From contig CAVPSB010000015.1 of assembly GCA_963708025.1 (NCBI GenBank), forward strand, positions 1 to 64,000: a DNA stretch of 64,000 nt, given 5' to 3'. The position numbers were made by a program. The DNA comes from an uncultured Candidatus Rokubacteria bacterium (GTDB lineage Bacteria > Methylomirabilota > Methylomirabilia > Rokubacteriales > DASRDR01). Positions 222 through 6,200 of the stretch are shown here, piece after piece (the stretch's first letter is position 1; each line of letters opens with the position of its first letter).

Positions 222-3200
222 ATTCCGGGTTGGCGAGGACAAGAAGGTCATGGTGCTGAGCGTGACGGAGGGCGAGGACAAGCCGCTCAAGTACCCGCTG
301 ATGTTCCGCGTCTCGCAGCTGCTCCTGCTGAACAAGACGGATCTCCTGGAGCACCTGGATTTCGACCTAGCCCGCTTCAGGGCCAACGTCGCCCGCGTCA
401 ATCCGGCCCTGCCGGTGATCGAGCTGTCGGCCAGGACCGGGCAGGGGATCGACGCGTGGGTGGACTGGCTCGGGCGGGAAGTCGCGGCCGCCGCAACGGG
501 GAGGGCGTCATGTGGGGCGACCTGAACGGCTCCATCGTTCCGAAGACCGCGACGCCCCGGGGCTGGGAAGGTCGCCCGCCCACGCGCTGGGCGGAGCGGG
601 GGGTCCCGCGACGGACCTTCGTCAAGTTCTGCGCCGCCATGACGGCCGTCCTGGCGCTGCCTGACCGCTACCTGCCGCGGGTCGCCGCGGCGCTCGAGCA
701 GGTCCGTCGCCCGGCGCTGGTGTGGCTCGAGTTCCAGGACTGCGCCGGGTGCACCGAGTCCTTCCTCCGCGCGAGCCGCCCCTCGGTGGGCGACATCGCG
801 CTGGACATCCTCTCGGTCAACTACCACGAGACCATCATGGCGCCGTCGGGGAAGGCGGCGGAGAAGTCACTGATGGACACGGTGAGGAACGAGAAGGGGA
901 AGTATCTGGTGGTGGTCGAGGGCTCGATCCCCACCGGGGACGGCGGGATCTACTGCACCATCGGCGGCCGGACGGCGCTCGACATCGCCAAAGAGGTGTG
1001 CGGCAGCGCCGCCGCGACCATCACGGTGGGCGCCTGCGCCTTCTACGGGGGCTGGCCGTCGGCCAAACCCAATCCCACCGGGGCCGTCGGCGTCCAGGAC
1101 GCGGTGCCGGGTCTCACGCTGATCAACCTGCCCGGCTGCCCGCCCAATGCCGTCAACATCACCGCGACCATCGTCCACTTCCTCACCTTCGGCACGCTGC
1201 CGGCGACCGATCAGCAGGGCCGGCCACTGTTCGCCTACGGCGAGCGCATCCACGACCGCTGCGAGCGGCGCGCCCACTTCGACGCCGGCCAGTTCGTGGA
1301 GGAGTGGGGCGACGAGGGGCACCGCAAGGGCTGGTGCCTGTACAAGATGGGCTGCAAGGGGCCCGCGACCTATCACAACTGCCCCGTGGTCCGCTGGAAC
1401 GACGGGACGAGCTGGCCGGTGGGTGCCGGGCACGGCTGCGTCGGCTGCTCCGAGCGGGATTTCTGGGACACCATGACGCCGTTCTACCGGCGCCTGCCGC
1501 CACTGCCCGGTGCCGGCGTGCAGACCACGGTGGACCGCATCGGCGGCTGGATCGTGGGCGGCACCGCAGCGGCTTTTGCCGCCCACGGCGTCGTCAGTAC
1601 CATCCGCGCCAAGACCCGGCCGAAGGAACAGGGACAGCAATCGAAAGAGGAGGCCAGGTGATGCCGAAGATCGCGATCGACCCCATCACCAGGATCGAGG
1701 GGCACCTCCGGATCGAGGCGCAGGTGGAGGGTGGCAACGTCGCGGAGGCCTGGAGCTCGAGCACGATGTTCCGTGGCATGGAACTGGTGCTCAAGGGGCG
1801 CGACCCGCGCGACGCCTGGCTCTTCGCCCAGCGCATCTGCGGCGTCTGAACGACGGTTCACGCCGCCTGCGCCGTGCGCGCAGTGGAAGACGCTCTCGGT
1901 ATCAAGATCCCGGATAATGCCCGGATCATCCGCAACCTGATCGCGGGGATCCAGTACGTCCAGGACCACGTGATCCACTTCTATCACCTGCACGCCCTGG
2001 ACTGGGTGGACATCACGGGCGCGCTCAAGGCCGACCCCGGCGAGACTTCCAAGCTCGCCCAGTCCCTCTCGCCCTGGCCCAAGTCGAGCACAACCTACTT
2101 CAAGACCGTCCAGGATCGCCTGAAGAAGTTCGTGGAGTCTGGGCAGCTCGGCCTCTTCGCCAACGGCTACTGGGGCCACCCCGCCTACAAGCTGCCGCCA
2201 GAGGCCAACCTCATGGCGGTGGCGCACTATCTCGAGGCCCTGGACTGGCAGCGCGAGGTGATCAAGATCCACGCGATCCTCGGGTCCAAGAACCCGCACC
2301 CGCAGACCTACCTGGTCGGCGGGATGGCCATCCCGCTGGACCCCAACAGCGCCGCCGCGCTCAACGCCGACAAGCTGGCGCTCCAGCATCAGCTCCTGAT
2401 GACCGCCAAGGAATTCGTGGACCAGGTCTACGTCCCCGACGTCCTGGCCATCGCCCCGTTCTACAAGGACTGGGCCGCGCTCGGTGCCGGCGTCGGCAAC
2501 TATCTCGCCTACGGCGACTACCCCATCGACACGAGCGGCGACCCGGCGCGGCTCTGGCTGCCGCGGGGCGTGATCCTGAATCGCGATCTCTCGACGGTCC
2601 ACCCGATGGACCACAAGCAGATCACGGAGTGGGTCACCCGCTCCTGGTACGAGTACAGCGACGGCGACGGCAAGGCCAGGCACCCCTGGGACGGCGAGAC
2701 CAACCCGAAGTACACCGGCCCCAGGCCGCCCTACGAGTTTCTCGAGACCGACAAGAAGTACTCTTGGCTCAAGGCGCCGCGCTACAACGGTCTGCCGATG
2801 GAGGTGGGGCCGCTCAGCCGCATGCTGGTGGCCTATGCCTCGGGTCACAAGGCCGTGAAGCCGGCCGTGGACGGCGCGCTCAAGGCGCTCGGCGTGGGCC
2901 CCGCCGCGCTCTTCTCCACGCTCGGGCGTATCGCCGCCCGCGCCGTCGAGACCCAGGTGATGGCCGCCGAGCTGCTGGCCTGGCACGCCCAGCTGGTCGC
3001 CAACATCAAGCGGGGGGACCTCAAGATCCACGCGGGCGAGCGCTGGGACCCCGCCACGTGGCCGAAGGAGGCGCAGGGCTGGGGCTTCCACGAGGCCCCG
3101 CGCGGGGCCCTCGGCCACTGGGTCCGGATCAAGGACGGCGCCATCGTCAACTACCAGTGCGTGGTGCCGAGCACCTGGAACGCCTCGCCGCGAGACGGCA

Positions 3201-6200
3201 AGGACCAGCGCGGCCCCTACGAGGCCTCTCTCCTCGGCACGCCGGTGGCCGATGCGAACCGGCCCGTGGAGATCCTCCGCACGGTGCACTCCTTCGACCC
3301 TTGCATGGCGTGCGCGGTCCACGTGACCGGCCCGGCACGCGAGCCCATCACGCGCATCCAGGTCGCCTAGGAGCCGCGCCATGAAGGGCGAGCGCGTCTA
3401 CGTCTGGGAGGTCCCGGTGCGCCTCACCCACTGGGTGATCGTGCTGGCGATCCTCGTGCTGTCCGCCACGGGCTTCTACATCGGTCACCCGGTGGTTGGC
3501 GGGTCGGTCTCGCTCATGGCCTGGGTCCGCGGCATCCATCGCCTGACGGCCTGGGTCTTCGTGGCGAGCCTCTTGCTCCGGACCTACTGGGCCTTCGCGG
3601 GCAACCAGTGGGCCTCGTGGCGCGTGCTATTCCCGTACCTGACGGCCGAAGGGCGGCGCGGCATGGGGGGCGTCTTCAGCTACTACATCTTCTTCCGCTG
3701 GCGCCCGCCATCTTTCGTCGGCCACAATCCGCTGGCCGGGACCGCCTACTCTTTTGTGGTGCTGCTCATGATCGTCCAGGTCGTCACGGGCTTCGCGCTG
3801 CAATCGCCGGGCGGAGGCGGCTGGCGGCATGCCCTCTTCGGCTGGGTCTTCTCGGTGCTGAGCCTGCAAGGGGCGCGCCTCGCTCACCACCTGATCATGT
3901 GGCTGCTCCTGGGCTTCATGGTCCACCACGTCTACAGCGCCGCCCTCATGGACGCCGAGGAGAAGAACGGCACCCTGACCAGCATCTTCACCGGCTACAA
4001 GTTCGGGGGGCGCCGCGCGTGACGGCACGCACGCTCGTGCTGGGACTCGGCAACATTCTCCTCCGGGACGAGGGGATCGGCGTGTGGGTGGCCGAGTCGC
4101 TCAGCCGCGAGTTCGGCTTTCCACTGGACGTCGCCACGCTCGAGGGCGGCACCCTGGGGCTCGACCTGCTCCCTCGCCTCGACGGCGTCGAGCGGCTCCT
4201 CCTGGTCGACGCGGTGAAGCTCGGCCGCGAGCCGGGCGAGATCGTCCGGCTCGAGGGCGATGCGGTCCCGGCGGCCCTCGACGTCAAGATCTCTCCCCAT
4301 CAGGTCGGAGTGCAGGATCTGCTGGCCGCGGCGCGGCTCATGGGCCGCGAGCCGCCGCTGATCGTGCTCTGGGGCATGGAGCCCGAACGTCTCGACCCGG
4401 GGACCGGCTTCTCGCCGCGGGTGGCCGAGGCTCTCCCTCAGCTCCGGGATGGGGTGCTCGACGAGCTCAGGCTCTGGGGCGTGCCGGGCGAGCCGGTCGC
4501 GGACGCCGCTCCGCCGCCGGTCTGGTGGGAGGCGCCGGGGGTCGGGAGGCCACGATGAGCGTCGTGACGGCCCGACGCATCGTGGTCGAGGGCGTGGTGC
4601 AGGGGGTGGGCTTCCGTCCCTTCGTCTACGGGCTGGCCACCCGCCGTGGGCTGGCGGGCTGGGTGCGGAACACGGCCTCGGGAGTGGAGATCGAGGTAGA
4701 GGGGCCGCCCGCCGCGCTCGAGGCTTTCCTCGGCGACCTGCGCGGCGAGCGCCCGCCGCTGGCCCACATCGAGCGGCTCCGCGAGGCCGACGCGCTCCCG
4801 CAGGGCCGGGATGCCTTCGAGATCGAGCAGTCCCTCGACGGGGATGGGTTCCAGCCCGTGTCGCCCGACGTGGCGACCTGCCCCGAGTGTCTCCGCGAGA
4901 TCATGGACCCCCGGGACCGGCGCTCCGGCTATCCCTTCACCAACTGCACGGACTGTGGCCCCCGCTTCACCATCATCCGCGCCGTCCCCTACGACCGGCC
5001 CCGCACCACCATGGCCGGCTTCATCATGTGTCCCCGCTGTCGGGCGGAGTACGAGGATCCCCGCGACCGACGGTTCCATGCCCAGCCCAATGCCTGCCCC
5101 GATTGCGGGCCGCGCCTGAGTCTGCTGGACGCCGGCGGTGACCCGTTGCCCGGGGACCCGCTGAGCGAAGCCCGCCGACTGCTCGCGGGCGGGCGCATCG
5201 TGGCCATCAAGGGCATCGGCGGGTTTCACCTGGCGTGCGACGCGACCAGCGAAGCGGCGGTGAGCCGGCTGAGGGCGCGGAAGGGGCGCGAGGGCAAGCC
5301 GCTGGCCCTCATGGTGGCGGATCTTCGGGACACCGAGCGGTTGTGCGTGATCTCGACCGAGGAGCGGAGGCTGCTCGCCTCGACGGCGCGGCCCATCGTG
5401 CTCCTTCGGGCGCGCCAGGCCTCCGGGGTCGCGCCCTCGGTGGCCCCGGGCCTGGGGCGGCTCGGCGTGATGCTGCCGTACTCCCCACTGCATCACCTGC
5501 TGTTCAACGCGCCAGACGGGACTCTCCCCCCACTGGTCATGACCAGCGGAAACCGGAGCGAGGAGCCCATCGCGACCGATAATGCCGACGCCCTCGACCG
5601 GCTCTCGGGCATCGCCGACGCATTCCTGCTTCACGACCGGCCGATCCACGTCCGGTGCGATGACTCGGTGACCCGGGTGGCGGCCGGGGGCGAAGTCCCC
5701 ATCCGCCGCTCCCGCGGATACGCGCCGTTCCCGGTGCGGCTGCCGTTCGAGTCCCACCCTGTGCTGGCGGTGGGCGCCGACTTGAAGAGCGCGGTCTGCG
5801 TCACGCGCGGGCCGTACGCCTTCGTGAGCCCGCACATCGGGGACCTCGAGAACGTCGAGACCTACGTCTCCTACCAAGGCATGGTCGACCGCATGGTGGA
5901 GCTCTTCCGGGTGCGGCCGATTGCCCTGGCGCACGACCTCCATCCGGACTACCTCTCTACGCGCTACGCGCTCGGCCTGAACCCTGAGCTGCCGCGGGTG
6001 GCCGTGCAGCACCACCACGCCCACGTGGCGGCGTGCATGGCCGAACACCGCCTCACGGGCCCGGTGATCGGGGTGGCCTTCGACGGCACCGGTTACGGCC
6101 CCGACGGGGCCGTCTGGGGCGGGGAGTTCCTCGTGGCCGACTACGCCGGGTTCGAGCGGGTCGCGCACCTGGGTTACGTGCCGATGCCCGGCGGCGATCG

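What a model noticed while it worked through the whole genome (the two positions that open the first line are those of the whole stretch)
1658..3370. Group-1 [NiFe] uptake hydrogenase with selenocysteine in the N-terminal nickel-binding motif
The large subunit of the genome's membrane-bound uptake hydrogenase has UGA at the second Cys of RxCGxC (RICGV-U-TTVH, residue 64; Hyd-1 position 79) while the C-terminal DPCMAC keeps Cys. It is a natural CXXU-type [NiFeSe] enzyme of Group 1 and part of a multi-phylum clade with one or two N-terminal Sec.
Evidence so far: PF00374 796.6 bits full length on read-through; operon with Tat small subunit, cytochrome b, protease, hypFCDE; Sec machinery. 80 related loci: TGA/TGA 20, Cys/TGA 8, Cys/Cys 51, 1 without the region. 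Hairpin with 6 pairs at a fixed place in 24 of 29 Sec-type against 1 of 51 Cys-type loci, seven arm pairs.
(Added by a program. Inside this text positions count along the whole contig: contig position 1 is position 1 of the stretch shown here. "Call 12" and the like, gene names such as g00115 and contig names such as C1 are that model's own, and its searches are not shown. The text may have been shortened before it was handed on; [...] marks where a part breaks off. The agent that wrote the report below was given it as the finding of a first reader that could run no searches.)

Follow-up and report, generated by a model that had tools for sequence, protein, structure and literature searches.

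The report
Uptake hydrogenase with N-terminal selenocysteine
The only nickel-iron hydrogenase of this soil bacterium very probably uses selenocysteine instead of cysteine at the ligand that bridges nickel and iron, a little-studied natural variant that turns out to be common in several uncultured phyla and is routinely mis-annotated as a truncated gene.

Summary
The large subunit gene (1661/1658-3370, +) has one in-frame TGA at 1847-1849. It lies at the second Cys of RICGV-U-TTVH, which aligns with E. coli Hyd-1 C79. The C-terminal DPCMAC keeps Cys.

Evidence for real UGA-to-Sec recoding:
- **Hairpin.** A 6-bp hairpin starts 17 nt after the UGA. It forms fully in 23 of 28 Sec-type loci against 1 of 52 Cys-type loci. 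Four of its 6 pairs covary, and 0 of 500 shuffles reach the observed score.
- **Selection.** dN/dS is 0.03-0.11 on both sides of the TGA.
- **Machinery.** The genome holds selA, selB, a G73 tRNA-Sec and a Sec-containing SelD, and no tRNA-ReC candidate.

The enzyme is a Tat-exported, cytochrome-b-linked Group 1 uptake hydrogenase. It is not Group 1a. Its nearest relatives are of the 1e/1f kind, but the subgroup was not formally determined.

New here:
- All 5 other orthologs found in 251 genomes of its phylum are UxxU, so the window's CxxU is probably a recent Sec-to-Cys reversion at the first position.
- In 401 sampled Nitrospirota genomes, at least 92 matches carry one or two TGA. All 20 that I read have them in this motif.
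- 71 of the best 120 database clusters are truncated gene calls.

Two Group 1 CXXU sequences were noted in 2011. I found no report of Group 1 UXXU. All of this is in silico.

The parts
510..1661 (+). Hydrogenase small subunit (HupS/HyaA-like). It has the Tat signal RRTFVKF, a standard CxGC proximal-cluster motif and a C-terminal membrane anchor.
   Evidence: PF01058 and PF14720 match, and TIGR00391 scores 434 bits. ATG 510 with its ribosome-binding site is. The motif [13 protein letters not shown] is read directly. That it marks the non-O2-tolerant type is recalled knowledge.
1661..3370 (+). Hydrogenase large subunit, read through one UGA. The alternative start is GTG 1658.
   Evidence: PF00374 scores 796.6 bits. 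Identity to E. coli HyaB is 52%. 3MYR_B scores 774 bits. dN/dS is 0.03-0.07 upstream and 0.06-0.11 downstream of the TGA.
1838..1840 (+). TGC, the first N-terminal Ni ligand (Cys, Hyd-1 C76). All five orthologs found in the phylum have TGA here.
1847..1849 (+). In-frame TGA, read as selenocysteine at the second N-terminal ligand (Hyd-1 C79, the Ni-Fe bridging position).
   Evidence: The same codon is TGA in 27 of 80 related loci, in 5 of 5 phylum orthologs and in 20 of 20 Nitrospirota loci read.
1867..1883 (+). SECIS-type hairpin inside the coding sequence. The arms CUGCGC (1867-1872) and GCGCAG (1878-1883) enclose the loop CGUGC (1873-1877). The helix starts 17 nt after the UGA. A bulged extension from 1863 to 1887 is possible.
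3381..4022 (+). b-type cytochrome subunit, the membrane anchor and quinone reductase.
   Evidence: PF01292 scores 87.5 bits. TIGR02125 scores 141.4 bits, above its 121.5 cut-off.
4019..4558 (+). Large-subunit C-terminal maturation endopeptidase (HycI/HyaD family). The start is approximate.
   Evidence: PF01750 scores 89.5 bits.
4555..6834 (+). HypF carbamoyltransferase.
   Evidence: Acylphosphatase, zf-HYPF, Sua5 and HypF_C domains match.
6848..7144 (+). HypC.
   Evidence: PF01455 scores 75.8 bits.
7131..8276 (+). HypD. The start is 7131 or 7089.
   Evidence: PF01924 scores 415 bits.
8273..9313 (+). HypE.
   Evidence: AIRS and AIRS_C domains match.

Best explanation
The window encodes the only [NiFe] hydrogenase of an 8.2-Mb, 71% G+C Methylomirabilota genome. 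It is a Tat-exported, periplasm-facing HupSL heterodimer anchored by a b-type cytochrome. It oxidises H2 and passes the electrons to the quinone pool.

In the large subunit, the UGA at 1847-1849 is not a stop. I infer the usual bacterial mechanism. SelB carrying Sec-tRNA(Sec) binds the hairpin at 1867-1883 in the mRNA and delivers selenocysteine when the UGA reaches the A site. The mature active site would then have three cysteine thiolates (C61/C76, C549 and C552 of DPCMAC) and one selenolate. The selenolate sits at the position that in Hyd-1 (C79) bridges Ni and Fe.

What is shown:
- the codon and its position
- the covarying hairpin
- purifying selection across the UGA
- the Sec genes, and their use in SelD
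- recurrence of the same recoded codon in many lineages

What is inferred:
- that Sec, not Cys, is inserted
- that the enzyme is active
- the bridging geometry, taken from homology
- any functional gain. The engineered Hyd-1 C79U variant kept 13% of native activity and had a lower Km for H2 (PMC8020662, passages read).

The window's CxxU state is most simply a recent TGA-to-TGC reversion at the first ligand. All five orthologs found in the phylum, at 79-96% identity, carry TGA at both positions.
For: 1. **Position.** The single in-frame TGA falls exactly on a metal-ligand Cys codon of a full-length PF00374 match.

2. **Recurrence.**
- The same codon is TGA in 27 of 80 related loci. In 20 of those both N-terminal Cys codons are TGA. 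C-terminal Cys is kept in every locus where that motif could be read; L034, L045 and L072 are broken or cut short, and L020 lacks the N-terminal region.
- It is TGA in 5 of 5 orthologs found in 251 Methylomirabilota genomes.
- It is TGA in 20 of 20 Nitrospirota loci that I fetched from the 92 TGA-bearing rows.

3. **Hairpin.**
- It has 6 of 6 pairs at a fixed place in 23 of 28 Sec-type against 1 of 52 Cys-type sequences.
- On the 28 Sec-type sequences, 93.2% of cells pair and 4 of 6 pairs change on both sides. The covariation score is 0.344 against a shuffled mean of 0.118, reached by 0 of 500 shuffles. Registers slid by 1-3 columns score 0.000-0.080.
- RNAalifold finds the same helix on its own.
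- The loop keeps GUG, with G at the second loop position. PMC13582414 (passages read) describes G at the first or second apical-loop position as the consensus for bacterial SECIS elements.

4. **Selection.** dN/dS is 0.03-0.07 over the 58 codons upstream of the motif and 0.06-0.11 over the 120 codons downstream, in five pairwise comparisons among Methylomirabilota orthologs (four with the window, one between two orthologs).

5. **Machinery.**
- tRNA-Sec scores 76.2 bits, has a UCA anticodon and G73, and lies beside selA and selB on contig C32.
- SelD has TGA at its canonical GAG-U-ACK site.
- ARAGORN finds no second UCA tRNA and only one ordinary tRNA-Cys.
- SelA is found in 26 of 27 Sec-type genomes.

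6. **Not an assembly error.**
- Contigs from two DNA studies and two RNA libraries cover 1833-1873. No difference at 1838-1840 or 1847-1849 appears among the 40 rows shown; 134 rows were not shown.
- 71 of the best 120 database clusters, at 80-100% identity, are gene calls of 487-498 aa that begin just after the hairpin. That is what a conserved TGA does to gene callers.
Against: - There is no direct evidence of selenium in the protein, of read-through, or of activity.
- The hairpin's folding energy in this 71% G+C context is not better than shuffles, z -0.25. The case rests on covariation and the Sec/Cys contrast, not on energy.
- Five of 28 Sec-type loci, a Nitrospirota group, do not form the fixed-register helix and need a bulged register.
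- SelA is also found in 17 of 23 sampled Cys-type genomes, so co-occurrence discriminates weakly.
- The genome's FdnG-type formate dehydrogenase has no in-frame stop. So far the known selenoproteome is only SelD and this enzyme.
- In E. coli Hyd-1 the engineered C79U lowered activity and did not improve O2 tolerance (PMC8020662), so no benefit is evident.
- The genome bin has 8.18% estimated contamination. Against that, all contigs over 50 kb correlate at r >= 0.97 in tetranucleotide use with C15.
Confidence: 0.87

Rival explanations
1. The UGA is recoded to cysteine, not selenocysteine. A SelB-dependent tRNA-ReC (selC*) would read UGA next to a SECIS, so the mature enzyme would be an ordinary all-Cys [NiFe] hydrogenase.
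For: PMC13582414 (passages read) reports tRNA-ReC-like genes enriched in genomes with UXXU Group 4 hydrogenases. It warns that one or both UGA may then encode Cys. The hairpin and the machinery evidence cannot tell Sec from Cys delivery.
Against: - In this 99.67%-complete genome ARAGORN finds one UCA tRNA and one ordinary 76-nt tRNA-Cys.
- The Rfam tRNA-Sec model finds one hit above its cut-off, and the next best hit is that ordinary tRNA-Cys.
- The UCA tRNA has G73 followed by CCA and sits beside selA and selB. That G73 marks tRNA-Sec and U73 marks tRNA-ReC is recalled, not tested.
- The five UxxU genomes of the phylum each have one tRNA-Sec. In the three of them with further tRNA-Sec-model hits, the four I read with ARAGORN are tRNA-Ser; four more in G291 were not read.
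Confidence: 0.05
2. The TGA is a genuine stop. The gene would then be a pseudogene, or the TGA a sequencing or assembly error, or the locus a split gene whose product starts at GTG 1874 without the N-terminal ligands.
For: Gene callers treat it this way: 71 of the best 120 database clusters are 487-498 aa calls. TGA is a common stop codon in high-G+C genomes, which is general knowledge.
Against: - The TGA falls exactly on a ligand Cys codon and recurs there in several phyla.
- The 58 codons upstream are under purifying selection as strong as downstream, dN/dS 0.03-0.07.
- No other stop interrupts the frame.
- This is the genome's only [NiFe] hydrogenase, and it keeps a full hyp and protease set beside it.
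- Independent contigs cover the site without a listed difference.
- A product lacking RxCGxC could not bind Ni, by established knowledge of the family.
Confidence: 0.03
3. Sec is inserted, but the hairpin at 1867-1883 is not the element that SelB uses. The real signal would be another structure, such as the helix that includes the UGA itself or a longer bulged stem.
For: RNAalifold also draws an invariant helix over columns 7-26 that contains the UGA. The window's minimum-free-energy fold extends the stem with a bulge. More distant CxxU lineages in Nitrospirota use other hairpins, including one that starts 11 nt after the UGA.
Against: The UGA-containing helix never varies, so it carries no covariation signal. 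Its sequence is fixed by conserved codons in Cys-type loci too. Only the 1867-1883 helix covaries and separates Sec-type from Cys-type loci.
Confidence: 0.05

Closest known systems
Group 1 membrane-bound uptake [NiFe] hydrogenases: Allochromatium vinosum MBH (PDB 3MYR), E. coli Hyd-1 (HyaABC) and Geobacter Hya-type 'Group 1f' enzymes
   Same: - Full-length large subunit: 774 bits to 3MYR_B and 52% identity to HyaB.
- Tat small subunit, cytochrome b subunit, and a C-terminal extension with its protease.
- The same S-L-cytb-protease gene order is seen in loci from Geobacteraceae, Terriglobia, Roseiflexus and Nitrospirota.
   Different: - The second N-terminal ligand is UGA/Sec instead of Cys.
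- The small subunit has the standard CxGC proximal-cluster motif. That the O2-tolerant Group 1d enzymes carry extra Cys there is recalled.
- It lacks the isp genes between S and L. That A. vinosum has them is also recalled.
- The subgroup was not determined by HydDB. The 1f label rests on papers that assign Geobacter Hya and Terriglobales enzymes to 1f (PMC6896113 and PMC5900883, passages read).
Canonical [NiFeSe] hydrogenases (Group 1a HysAB, such as Desulfomicrobium baculatum 1CC1 and D. vulgaris 2WPN; also Group 3 Fru/Vhu)
   Same: A Ni-coordinating Cys is replaced by UGA-encoded Sec in a periplasmic Group 1 enzyme, using the bacterial SelABCD system.
   Different: - There Sec is the terminal ligand of the C-terminal motif (DPUxxC). 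Here the C-terminal motif is DPCMAC and Sec is in the N-terminal motif, at the bridging position.
- The match to these enzymes is weak: 302-327 bits to the PDB chains.
- NF045518 scores 395.8 against a cut-off of 780, and NF033181 scores 551.2 against 600.
N-terminal-Sec Group 4 [NiFeSe] hydrogenases (Takano et al. 2026, PMC13582414) and the two Group 1 CXXU sequences noted by Baltazar et al. 2011
   Same: [quoted passage not shown] A single downstream hairpin has G in its apical loop. Distribution among Cys-type relatives is sporadic and polyphyletic, and selABCD co-occurs.
   Different: - The Group 4 enzymes are cytoplasm-facing, energy-converting complexes. This one is a Tat-exported Group 1 uptake enzyme; NuoD-type models score only 29-32 bits.
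- Takano et al. call UXXC and UXXU previously unrecognised and describe them only in Group 4. Here UXXU is found in Group 1.
- I did not see Baltazar 2011 itself. I know it only through its citation in PMC13582414 and PMC8020662.
Engineered E. coli Hyd-1 C79U (Evans et al. 2021, PMC8020662)
   Same: It has the same ligand position, by the alignment. The natural enzyme is the counterpart of that variant, and the UxxU relatives correspond to C76U plus C79U combined.
   Different: The engineered variant used EF-Tu-driven UAG suppression in an O2-tolerant Group 1d background. It had 13% of native activity, a lower Km for H2, and no gain in O2 tolerance (passages read). The natural enzyme has evolved with Sec, and its properties are unknown.

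Membership tests
[NiFe] hydrogenase large subunit, Group 1 (periplasmic or membrane-bound uptake) | Full-length match to the Ni-dependent hydrogenase large-subunit family | tested here: met
   PF00374 scores 796.6 bits over profile positions 1-508 of 508. The best solved relatives are Group 1 enzymes.
[NiFe] hydrogenase large subunit, Group 1 (periplasmic or membrane-bound uptake) | Two CxxC Ni-binding motifs, RxCGxC at the N-terminus and DPCxxC at the C-terminus | tested here: inconclusive
   The C-terminal DPCMAC is present. The N-terminal motif reads RICGV-UGA, which meets the feature only if UGA is read as Sec or Cys.
[NiFe] hydrogenase large subunit, Group 1 (periplasmic or membrane-bound uptake) | Adjacent small subunit with a twin-arginine signal | tested here: met
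   RRTFVKF lies upstream of the PF01058 and PF14720 domains, and TIGR00391 scores 434 bits.
[NiFe] hydrogenase large subunit, Group 1 (periplasmic or membrane-bound uptake) | Membrane cytochrome b partner and a C-terminal processing protease | tested here: met
   TIGR02125 scores 141.4 against a cut-off of 121.5. PF01750 scores 89.5 bits. A C-terminal extension follows His555.
[NiFe] hydrogenase large subunit, Group 1 (periplasmic or membrane-bound uptake) | Subgroup (1a-1k) by the HydDB classifier | not testable with these tools
   No HydDB classifier is available here. Proxies point to the 1e/1f neighbourhood.
Canonical [NiFeSe] hydrogenase (Group 1a, HysA) | Sec in the C-terminal motif (DPUxxC) | tested here: not met
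   The motif is DPCMAC with TGC codons, and the only in-frame stop is at residue 64.
Canonical [NiFeSe] hydrogenase (Group 1a, HysA) | Score above the curated cut-off of the NCBIfam NiFeSe models | tested here: not met
   NF045518 scores 395.8 against 780. NF033181 scores 551.2 against 600.
Bacterial SelB-dependent selenoprotein gene | In-frame UGA at a site where homologues have Cys | tested here: met
   52 of 80 related loci have TGC or TGT at this codon.
Bacterial SelB-dependent selenoprotein gene | A stem-loop shortly downstream of the UGA, with a conserved G in the apical loop | tested here: met
   The helix starts 17 nt after the UGA and the loop is CGUGC. The distance range usually quoted for bacterial SECIS elements is recalled.
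Bacterial SelB-dependent selenoprotein gene | selA, selB, selC and selD in the genome | tested here: met
   SelD itself carries UGA.
Bacterial SelB-dependent selenoprotein gene | Selenium shown in the protein | not testable with these tools
   This needs mass spectrometry or 75Se labelling.
Group 4 N-terminal-Sec [NiFeSe] hydrogenases (Takano 2026) | Group 4 energy-converting large subunit (NuoD-like, no Tat small subunit) | tested here: not met
   NuoD models score 29-32 bits against cut-offs of 360-459. A Tat small subunit is present.

The most novel reading that the evidence does not exclude
N-terminal selenocysteine defines a large, overlooked class of Group 1 uptake hydrogenases. A bridging selenolate alone would give CxxU, and both N-terminal ligands would give UxxU. 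This class would be a major form in Nitrospirota, present in Anaerolineae and present in soil Methylomirabilota. It is hidden because gene callers truncate the genes at the UGA.

In the UxxU members one hairpin would serve two UGA codons 9 nt apart. The window would record a recent reversion of the terminal Sec to Cys while the bridging Sec is kept. That would suggest the bridging position is the one under selection, which is the opposite of the classical [NiFeSe] enzymes.
Probability: 0.55. Interest if true: 0.78.

Novelty: new variant of a known kind. Interest (0 to 1): 0.66.

Why it matters
- **A natural test case.** Classical [NiFeSe] hydrogenases put Sec at one terminal, C-terminal ligand, and much of the thinking about why selenium helps rests on that position. 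A natural Group 1 enzyme with Sec at the Ni-Fe bridging ligand, and relatives with two Sec, is the counterpart of the engineered Hyd-1 C79U and C76U variants (PMC8020662). It offers an evolved system for asking what a bridging selenolate does to H2 affinity, catalytic bias and oxidative inactivation.
- **Annotation.** These genes are called as 5'-truncated proteins of 487-498 aa in public databases: 71 of the best 120 clusters. Surveys of H2 metabolism and of selenoproteomes in soil Methylomirabilota, Nitrospirota and Chloroflexota would therefore misjudge them.
- **Scope of [NiFeSe] enzymes.** A 2026 review still states that [NiFeSe] hydrogenases occur only in sulfate reducers and methanogens (PMC13188914, passage read).
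- **Decoding.** The UxxU relatives raise the question of how one SECIS decodes two nearby UGA codons.

Tried and rejected
- **Rfam scan.** A scan of the window at gathering thresholds found nothing, and ARAGORN found no tRNA in the window. Rfam has no matching SECIS model here, so this says nothing either way.
- **Folding energy.** The energy of 1840-1910 is no better than shuffles, z -0.25. I dropped it as a criterion in this G+C-rich coding sequence.
- **Handle limit.** A search with 80 locus handles exceeded the 50-locus limit. I re-ran it with all 27 Sec-type loci and 23 of the 52 Cys-type loci.
- **One origin of the Sec type.** The AU test rejects holding the 25 Sec-type rows together, p 1.8e-5. 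Rows L034, L045 and L072 (broken or incomplete) and L020 (no N-terminal region) were left out of the tree. I named the group after seeing the tree, and the tree used the quick LG+G4 search.
- **Gains versus losses.** I could not tell several gains from several losses of Sec, because backbone forks are poorly supported.
- **Formate dehydrogenase.** The FdnG-type gene has no in-frame stop, so it gives no second test of Sec use.
- **Expression.** Contigs from two RNA libraries lie on the gene. The tool warns that DNA can be present in such libraries, so I do not claim transcription.
- **Subgroup.** I could not fetch named 1e or 1f reference sequences. Only E. coli HyaB (1d) and HybC (1c) were added to the tree, and both sit on long branches.
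- **Literature.** Searches for Group 1 N-terminal Sec or UXXU returned only PMC13582414 and reviews. Baltazar et al. 2011 is not in the library and I did not read it. I did not open the supplements of PMC13582414; they could list Group 1 cases.

Full report
**1. The observation**

Window 1658-3370 (+), read with TGA as U, gives one uninterrupted 570-residue frame. Its only recoded codon is TGA at 1847-1849, in the context QRICGV-U-TTVH. The C-terminal motif is DPCMAC. On read-through the protein matches PF00374 over the whole profile at 796.6 bits. BLASTP against E. coli HyaB, fetched from the K-12 record, gives 52% identity. It aligns C61 with C76 and U64 with C79.

The small subunit's stop (1659-1661) overlaps both candidate starts. 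ATG 1661 lies 7 nt from GAGGAGG and reproduces the MPKIAIDP start of full-length homologues. It is the likelier start, and with it Sec is residue 63.

**2. The locus**

The operon, upstream to downstream:
- **Small subunit**, ATG 510-1661. It has the Tat motif RRTFVKF, the motif [13 protein letters not shown] and a hydrophobic C-terminal tail.
- **Cytochrome b**, 3381-4022. TIGR02125 scores above its cut-off.
- **HycI-type protease**, about 4019-4558.
- **hypF, hypC, hypD and hypE**.

This is the only PF00374 gene in the 8.17-Mb genome. The best solved relative is the Allochromatium vinosum membrane-bound hydrogenase, 3MYR_B at 774 bits. Salmonella Hyd-5 and E. coli Hyd-1 follow. The classical [NiFeSe] enzymes score only 302-327 bits.

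The NCBIfam NiFeSe models score below their cut-offs. The enzyme is therefore Group 1 but not Group 1a.

The nearest genome relatives at 63-74% identity include Geobacteraceae, Terriglobia and Roseiflexus loci with the same S-L-cytb-protease order. Papers assign Geobacter Hya and Terriglobales enzymes to the polyphyletic Group 1f (PMC6896113 and PMC5900883, passages read). I did not run a formal subgroup classification.

**3. Is the UGA read as Sec?**

Of the 80 loci from genome contigs, 20 have TGA at both N-terminal Cys codons and 7 at the second only. A further 52 have Cys codons at both, and 1 lacks the region. Every locus where the C-terminal motif could be read keeps DPC[ML]AC.

*Hairpin.*
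- Seventeen nucleotides after the second codon, Sec-type sequences form a 6-bp helix closed by a 5-nt loop: CGUGC, CGUGA or GGUGA.
- It is perfect in 23 of 28 Sec-type sequences (window included) and in 1 of 52 Cys-type sequences.
- The five exceptions are one Nitrospirota group that folds in a bulged register.
- On the 28 Sec-type sequences, 93.2% of cells pair and 4 of 6 pairs show changes on both sides. The covariation score is 0.344 against 0.118 for shuffles, reached by 0 of 500. Slid registers give 0.000-0.080.
- RNAalifold recovers the helix independently.
- The helix lies in codons 69-75, so the compensatory changes alter or constrain amino acids. Residue 70 is Cys, Ser or Ala, paired with Ala(GCA), Ala(GCU), Ser or Gly at residue 74. 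The RNA structure is thus selected at some cost to the protein (read directly).
- Folding energy alone is uninformative in this G+C-rich sequence.

*Selection.* dN/dS is 0.03-0.07 for the 58 codons upstream of the motif and 0.06-0.11 for the 120 codons downstream, in comparisons among Methylomirabilota orthologs. This excludes a decaying or truncated gene.

*Machinery.*
- tRNA-Sec scores 76.2 bits and has a UCA anticodon and G73. It lies beside selA and selB on contig C32.
- One selD has TGA at the canonical GAG-U-ACK site, so the cell already depends on UGA-to-Sec decoding.
- ARAGORN finds no other UCA tRNA and one ordinary tRNA-Cys. The tRNA-ReC route to Cys raised by PMC13582414 therefore has no candidate here.
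- The contigs carrying these genes share composition with the window's contig.

*The site in other data.*
- Contigs from two DNA studies and two RNA libraries cover the site with no listed difference at either codon. Only the 40 best-supported of 174 difference rows were shown.
- Of the best 120 clusters in the 5.8-billion-protein collection, 71 are 487-498-aa calls at 80-100% identity that start just after the hairpin. The other 49, at 79% identity or less, are full-length CxxC proteins. None is named a selenoprotein.

**4.

(a) *The phylum.*
- Among 251 Methylomirabilota genomes, 7 have a match.
- Besides the window, five are orthologs at 79-96% identity and all five are UxxU. The seventh is a 54%-identical Cys-type enzyme.
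- The window is the only CxxU. It differs from its same-family relative L107 by TGC for TGA at 1838-1840, within an otherwise identical motif and hairpin.
- The simplest reading is a recent Sec-to-Cys reversion at the terminal ligand with the bridging Sec retained.
- All five UxxU genomes have one tRNA-Sec. In the three with further hits, the four I read are tRNA-Ser; four more in G291 were not read.

(b) *Nitrospirota.*
- In a sample of 401 Nitrospirota genomes, 166 have a strong match.
- Of the 150 match rows listed, 53 carry two TGA and 39 carry one. Another 32 rows were not listed.
- I fetched 20 of these. All 20 have the TGA in the N-terminal motif, 3 as UxxU and 17 as CxxU, with Cys at the C-terminus.
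- They include lineages only 51-56% identical to the window that use different hairpins, one of which starts 11 nt after the UGA.

(c) *Phylogeny.*
- On a tree of 79 rows, the Sec-type sequences fall in at least five places among Cys-type ones.
- Holding them together costs 240 log-likelihood units, p-AU 1.8e-5.
- Sec has therefore been gained or lost repeatedly. I cannot say which.

(d) *Machinery co-occurrence.* SelA is present in 26 of 27 Sec-type genomes and 17 of 23 sampled Cys-type genomes. This is consistent but only weakly discriminating.

**5. Mechanism**

Shown: the recoded codon, the hairpin, the machinery and selection for an intact frame.

Inferred:
- SelB with Sec-tRNA(Sec) binds the hairpin and inserts Sec at residue 64.
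- After HypCDEF-dependent cofactor assembly and C-terminal cleavage, the Ni-Fe site carries a selenolate at the position that bridges Ni and Fe in Hyd-1.
- The heterodimer is exported by Tat and passes electrons from H2 through three FeS clusters to cytochrome b and then quinone.

The functional effect of the selenolate is unknown. In Hyd-1, C79U was the most active of the four Cys-to-Sec variants at 13% of native. It lowered Km for H2 but did not improve O2 tolerance (PMC8020662, passages read).

**6. Comparison with what is in print**

- PMC13582414 (abstract and passages read) describes CXXU, UXXC and UXXU variants in Group 4. It states that Sec variants were otherwise known only in Groups 1 and 3, mainly as C-terminal UXXC.
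- It cites Baltazar et al. 2011 for two Group 1 sequences and one Group 3 sequence with N-terminal CXXU, and calls UXXC and UXXU previously unrecognised.
- PMC13188914 (passages read) says [NiFeSe] hydrogenases are found only in sulfate reducers and methanogens.
- My searches found no paper on Group 1 UXXU or on the breadth seen here.
- I did not read Baltazar 2011 or the supplements of PMC13582414.

**7. Verdict**

The window's enzyme is a new natural member of a barely described variant, Group 1 with N-terminal Sec. Its relatives extend that variant to UXXU in Group 1 and show it to be widespread. Everything is in silico, and selenium in the protein remains to be shown.

Noticed in passing
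G000 contigs (not in the window): C7:44337-44434, C11:26228-26322, C12:266650-266743, C20:72690-72789, C25:328884-328977, C30:73395-73490, C42:1357-1451: ARAGORN calls seven unusually long (94-100 nt) 'tRNAs': Pro-tgg, Ile-aat, Trp-cca, Gly-ccc, Arg-tcg, Pro-agg and Ala-cgc. It also calls two with four-base anticodons. They may be false positives, intron-bearing genes or allo-tRNA-like genes. None has a UCA or GCA anticodon.
   Followed up: no
G000:C23:88505-89419 (locus L093): A second selD-like gene scores 270 bits, above the cut-off, and has no in-frame stop. It lies inside an 833-aa open frame, so it may be a fusion protein.
   Followed up: no
G000:C7:91381-92304 (L092) and G000:C49:89992-93057 (L119): SelD is itself a selenoprotein, with TGA at GAG-U-ACK. 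The FdnG-type formate dehydrogenase has no in-frame stop. The hydrogenase and SelD are the only selenoprotein genes I identified, but I did not run a genome-wide selenoprotein scan.
   Followed up: partly
L128-L133, L137, L138 (Nitrospirota genomes G419, G518, G556, G469, G683, G342, G375, G355): A more distant Group 1 lineage, 51-56% identical to the window, also has CxxU but with different hairpins. One form is an 8-bp stem with a GGU loop. The other is a 7-bp stem, CGCACUG/CAGUGCG, that starts 11 nt after the UGA.
   Followed up: partly
L012-L016, L057 (Anaerolineae/Thermoflexus UxxU loci): The C-terminal extension, which is normally cleaved off, ends in ...NDW(T/S/A)C(P/L) directly before a TGA stop. 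Their neighbours lack a cytochrome b gene; L014 has a 4Fe-4S dicluster protein instead.
   Followed up: no
L135 (G431:C1:175189-177498): This UxxU locus keeps the 6-bp helix, but its loop is GGUCC instead of CGUGA/CGUGC.
   Followed up: no
window 9324-13324: Downstream of the hyp genes lie an enoyl-CoA hydratase (9324-10175) and the tripartite tricarboxylate transporter genes TctC (10351-11337) and TctA (11822-13324). They appear unrelated to the hydrogenase.
   Followed up: no
window 1-500: The contig starts at window position 1, and the frame of the small subunit stays open upstream to the contig end. Whatever precedes the operon is not in the assembly.
   Followed up: no
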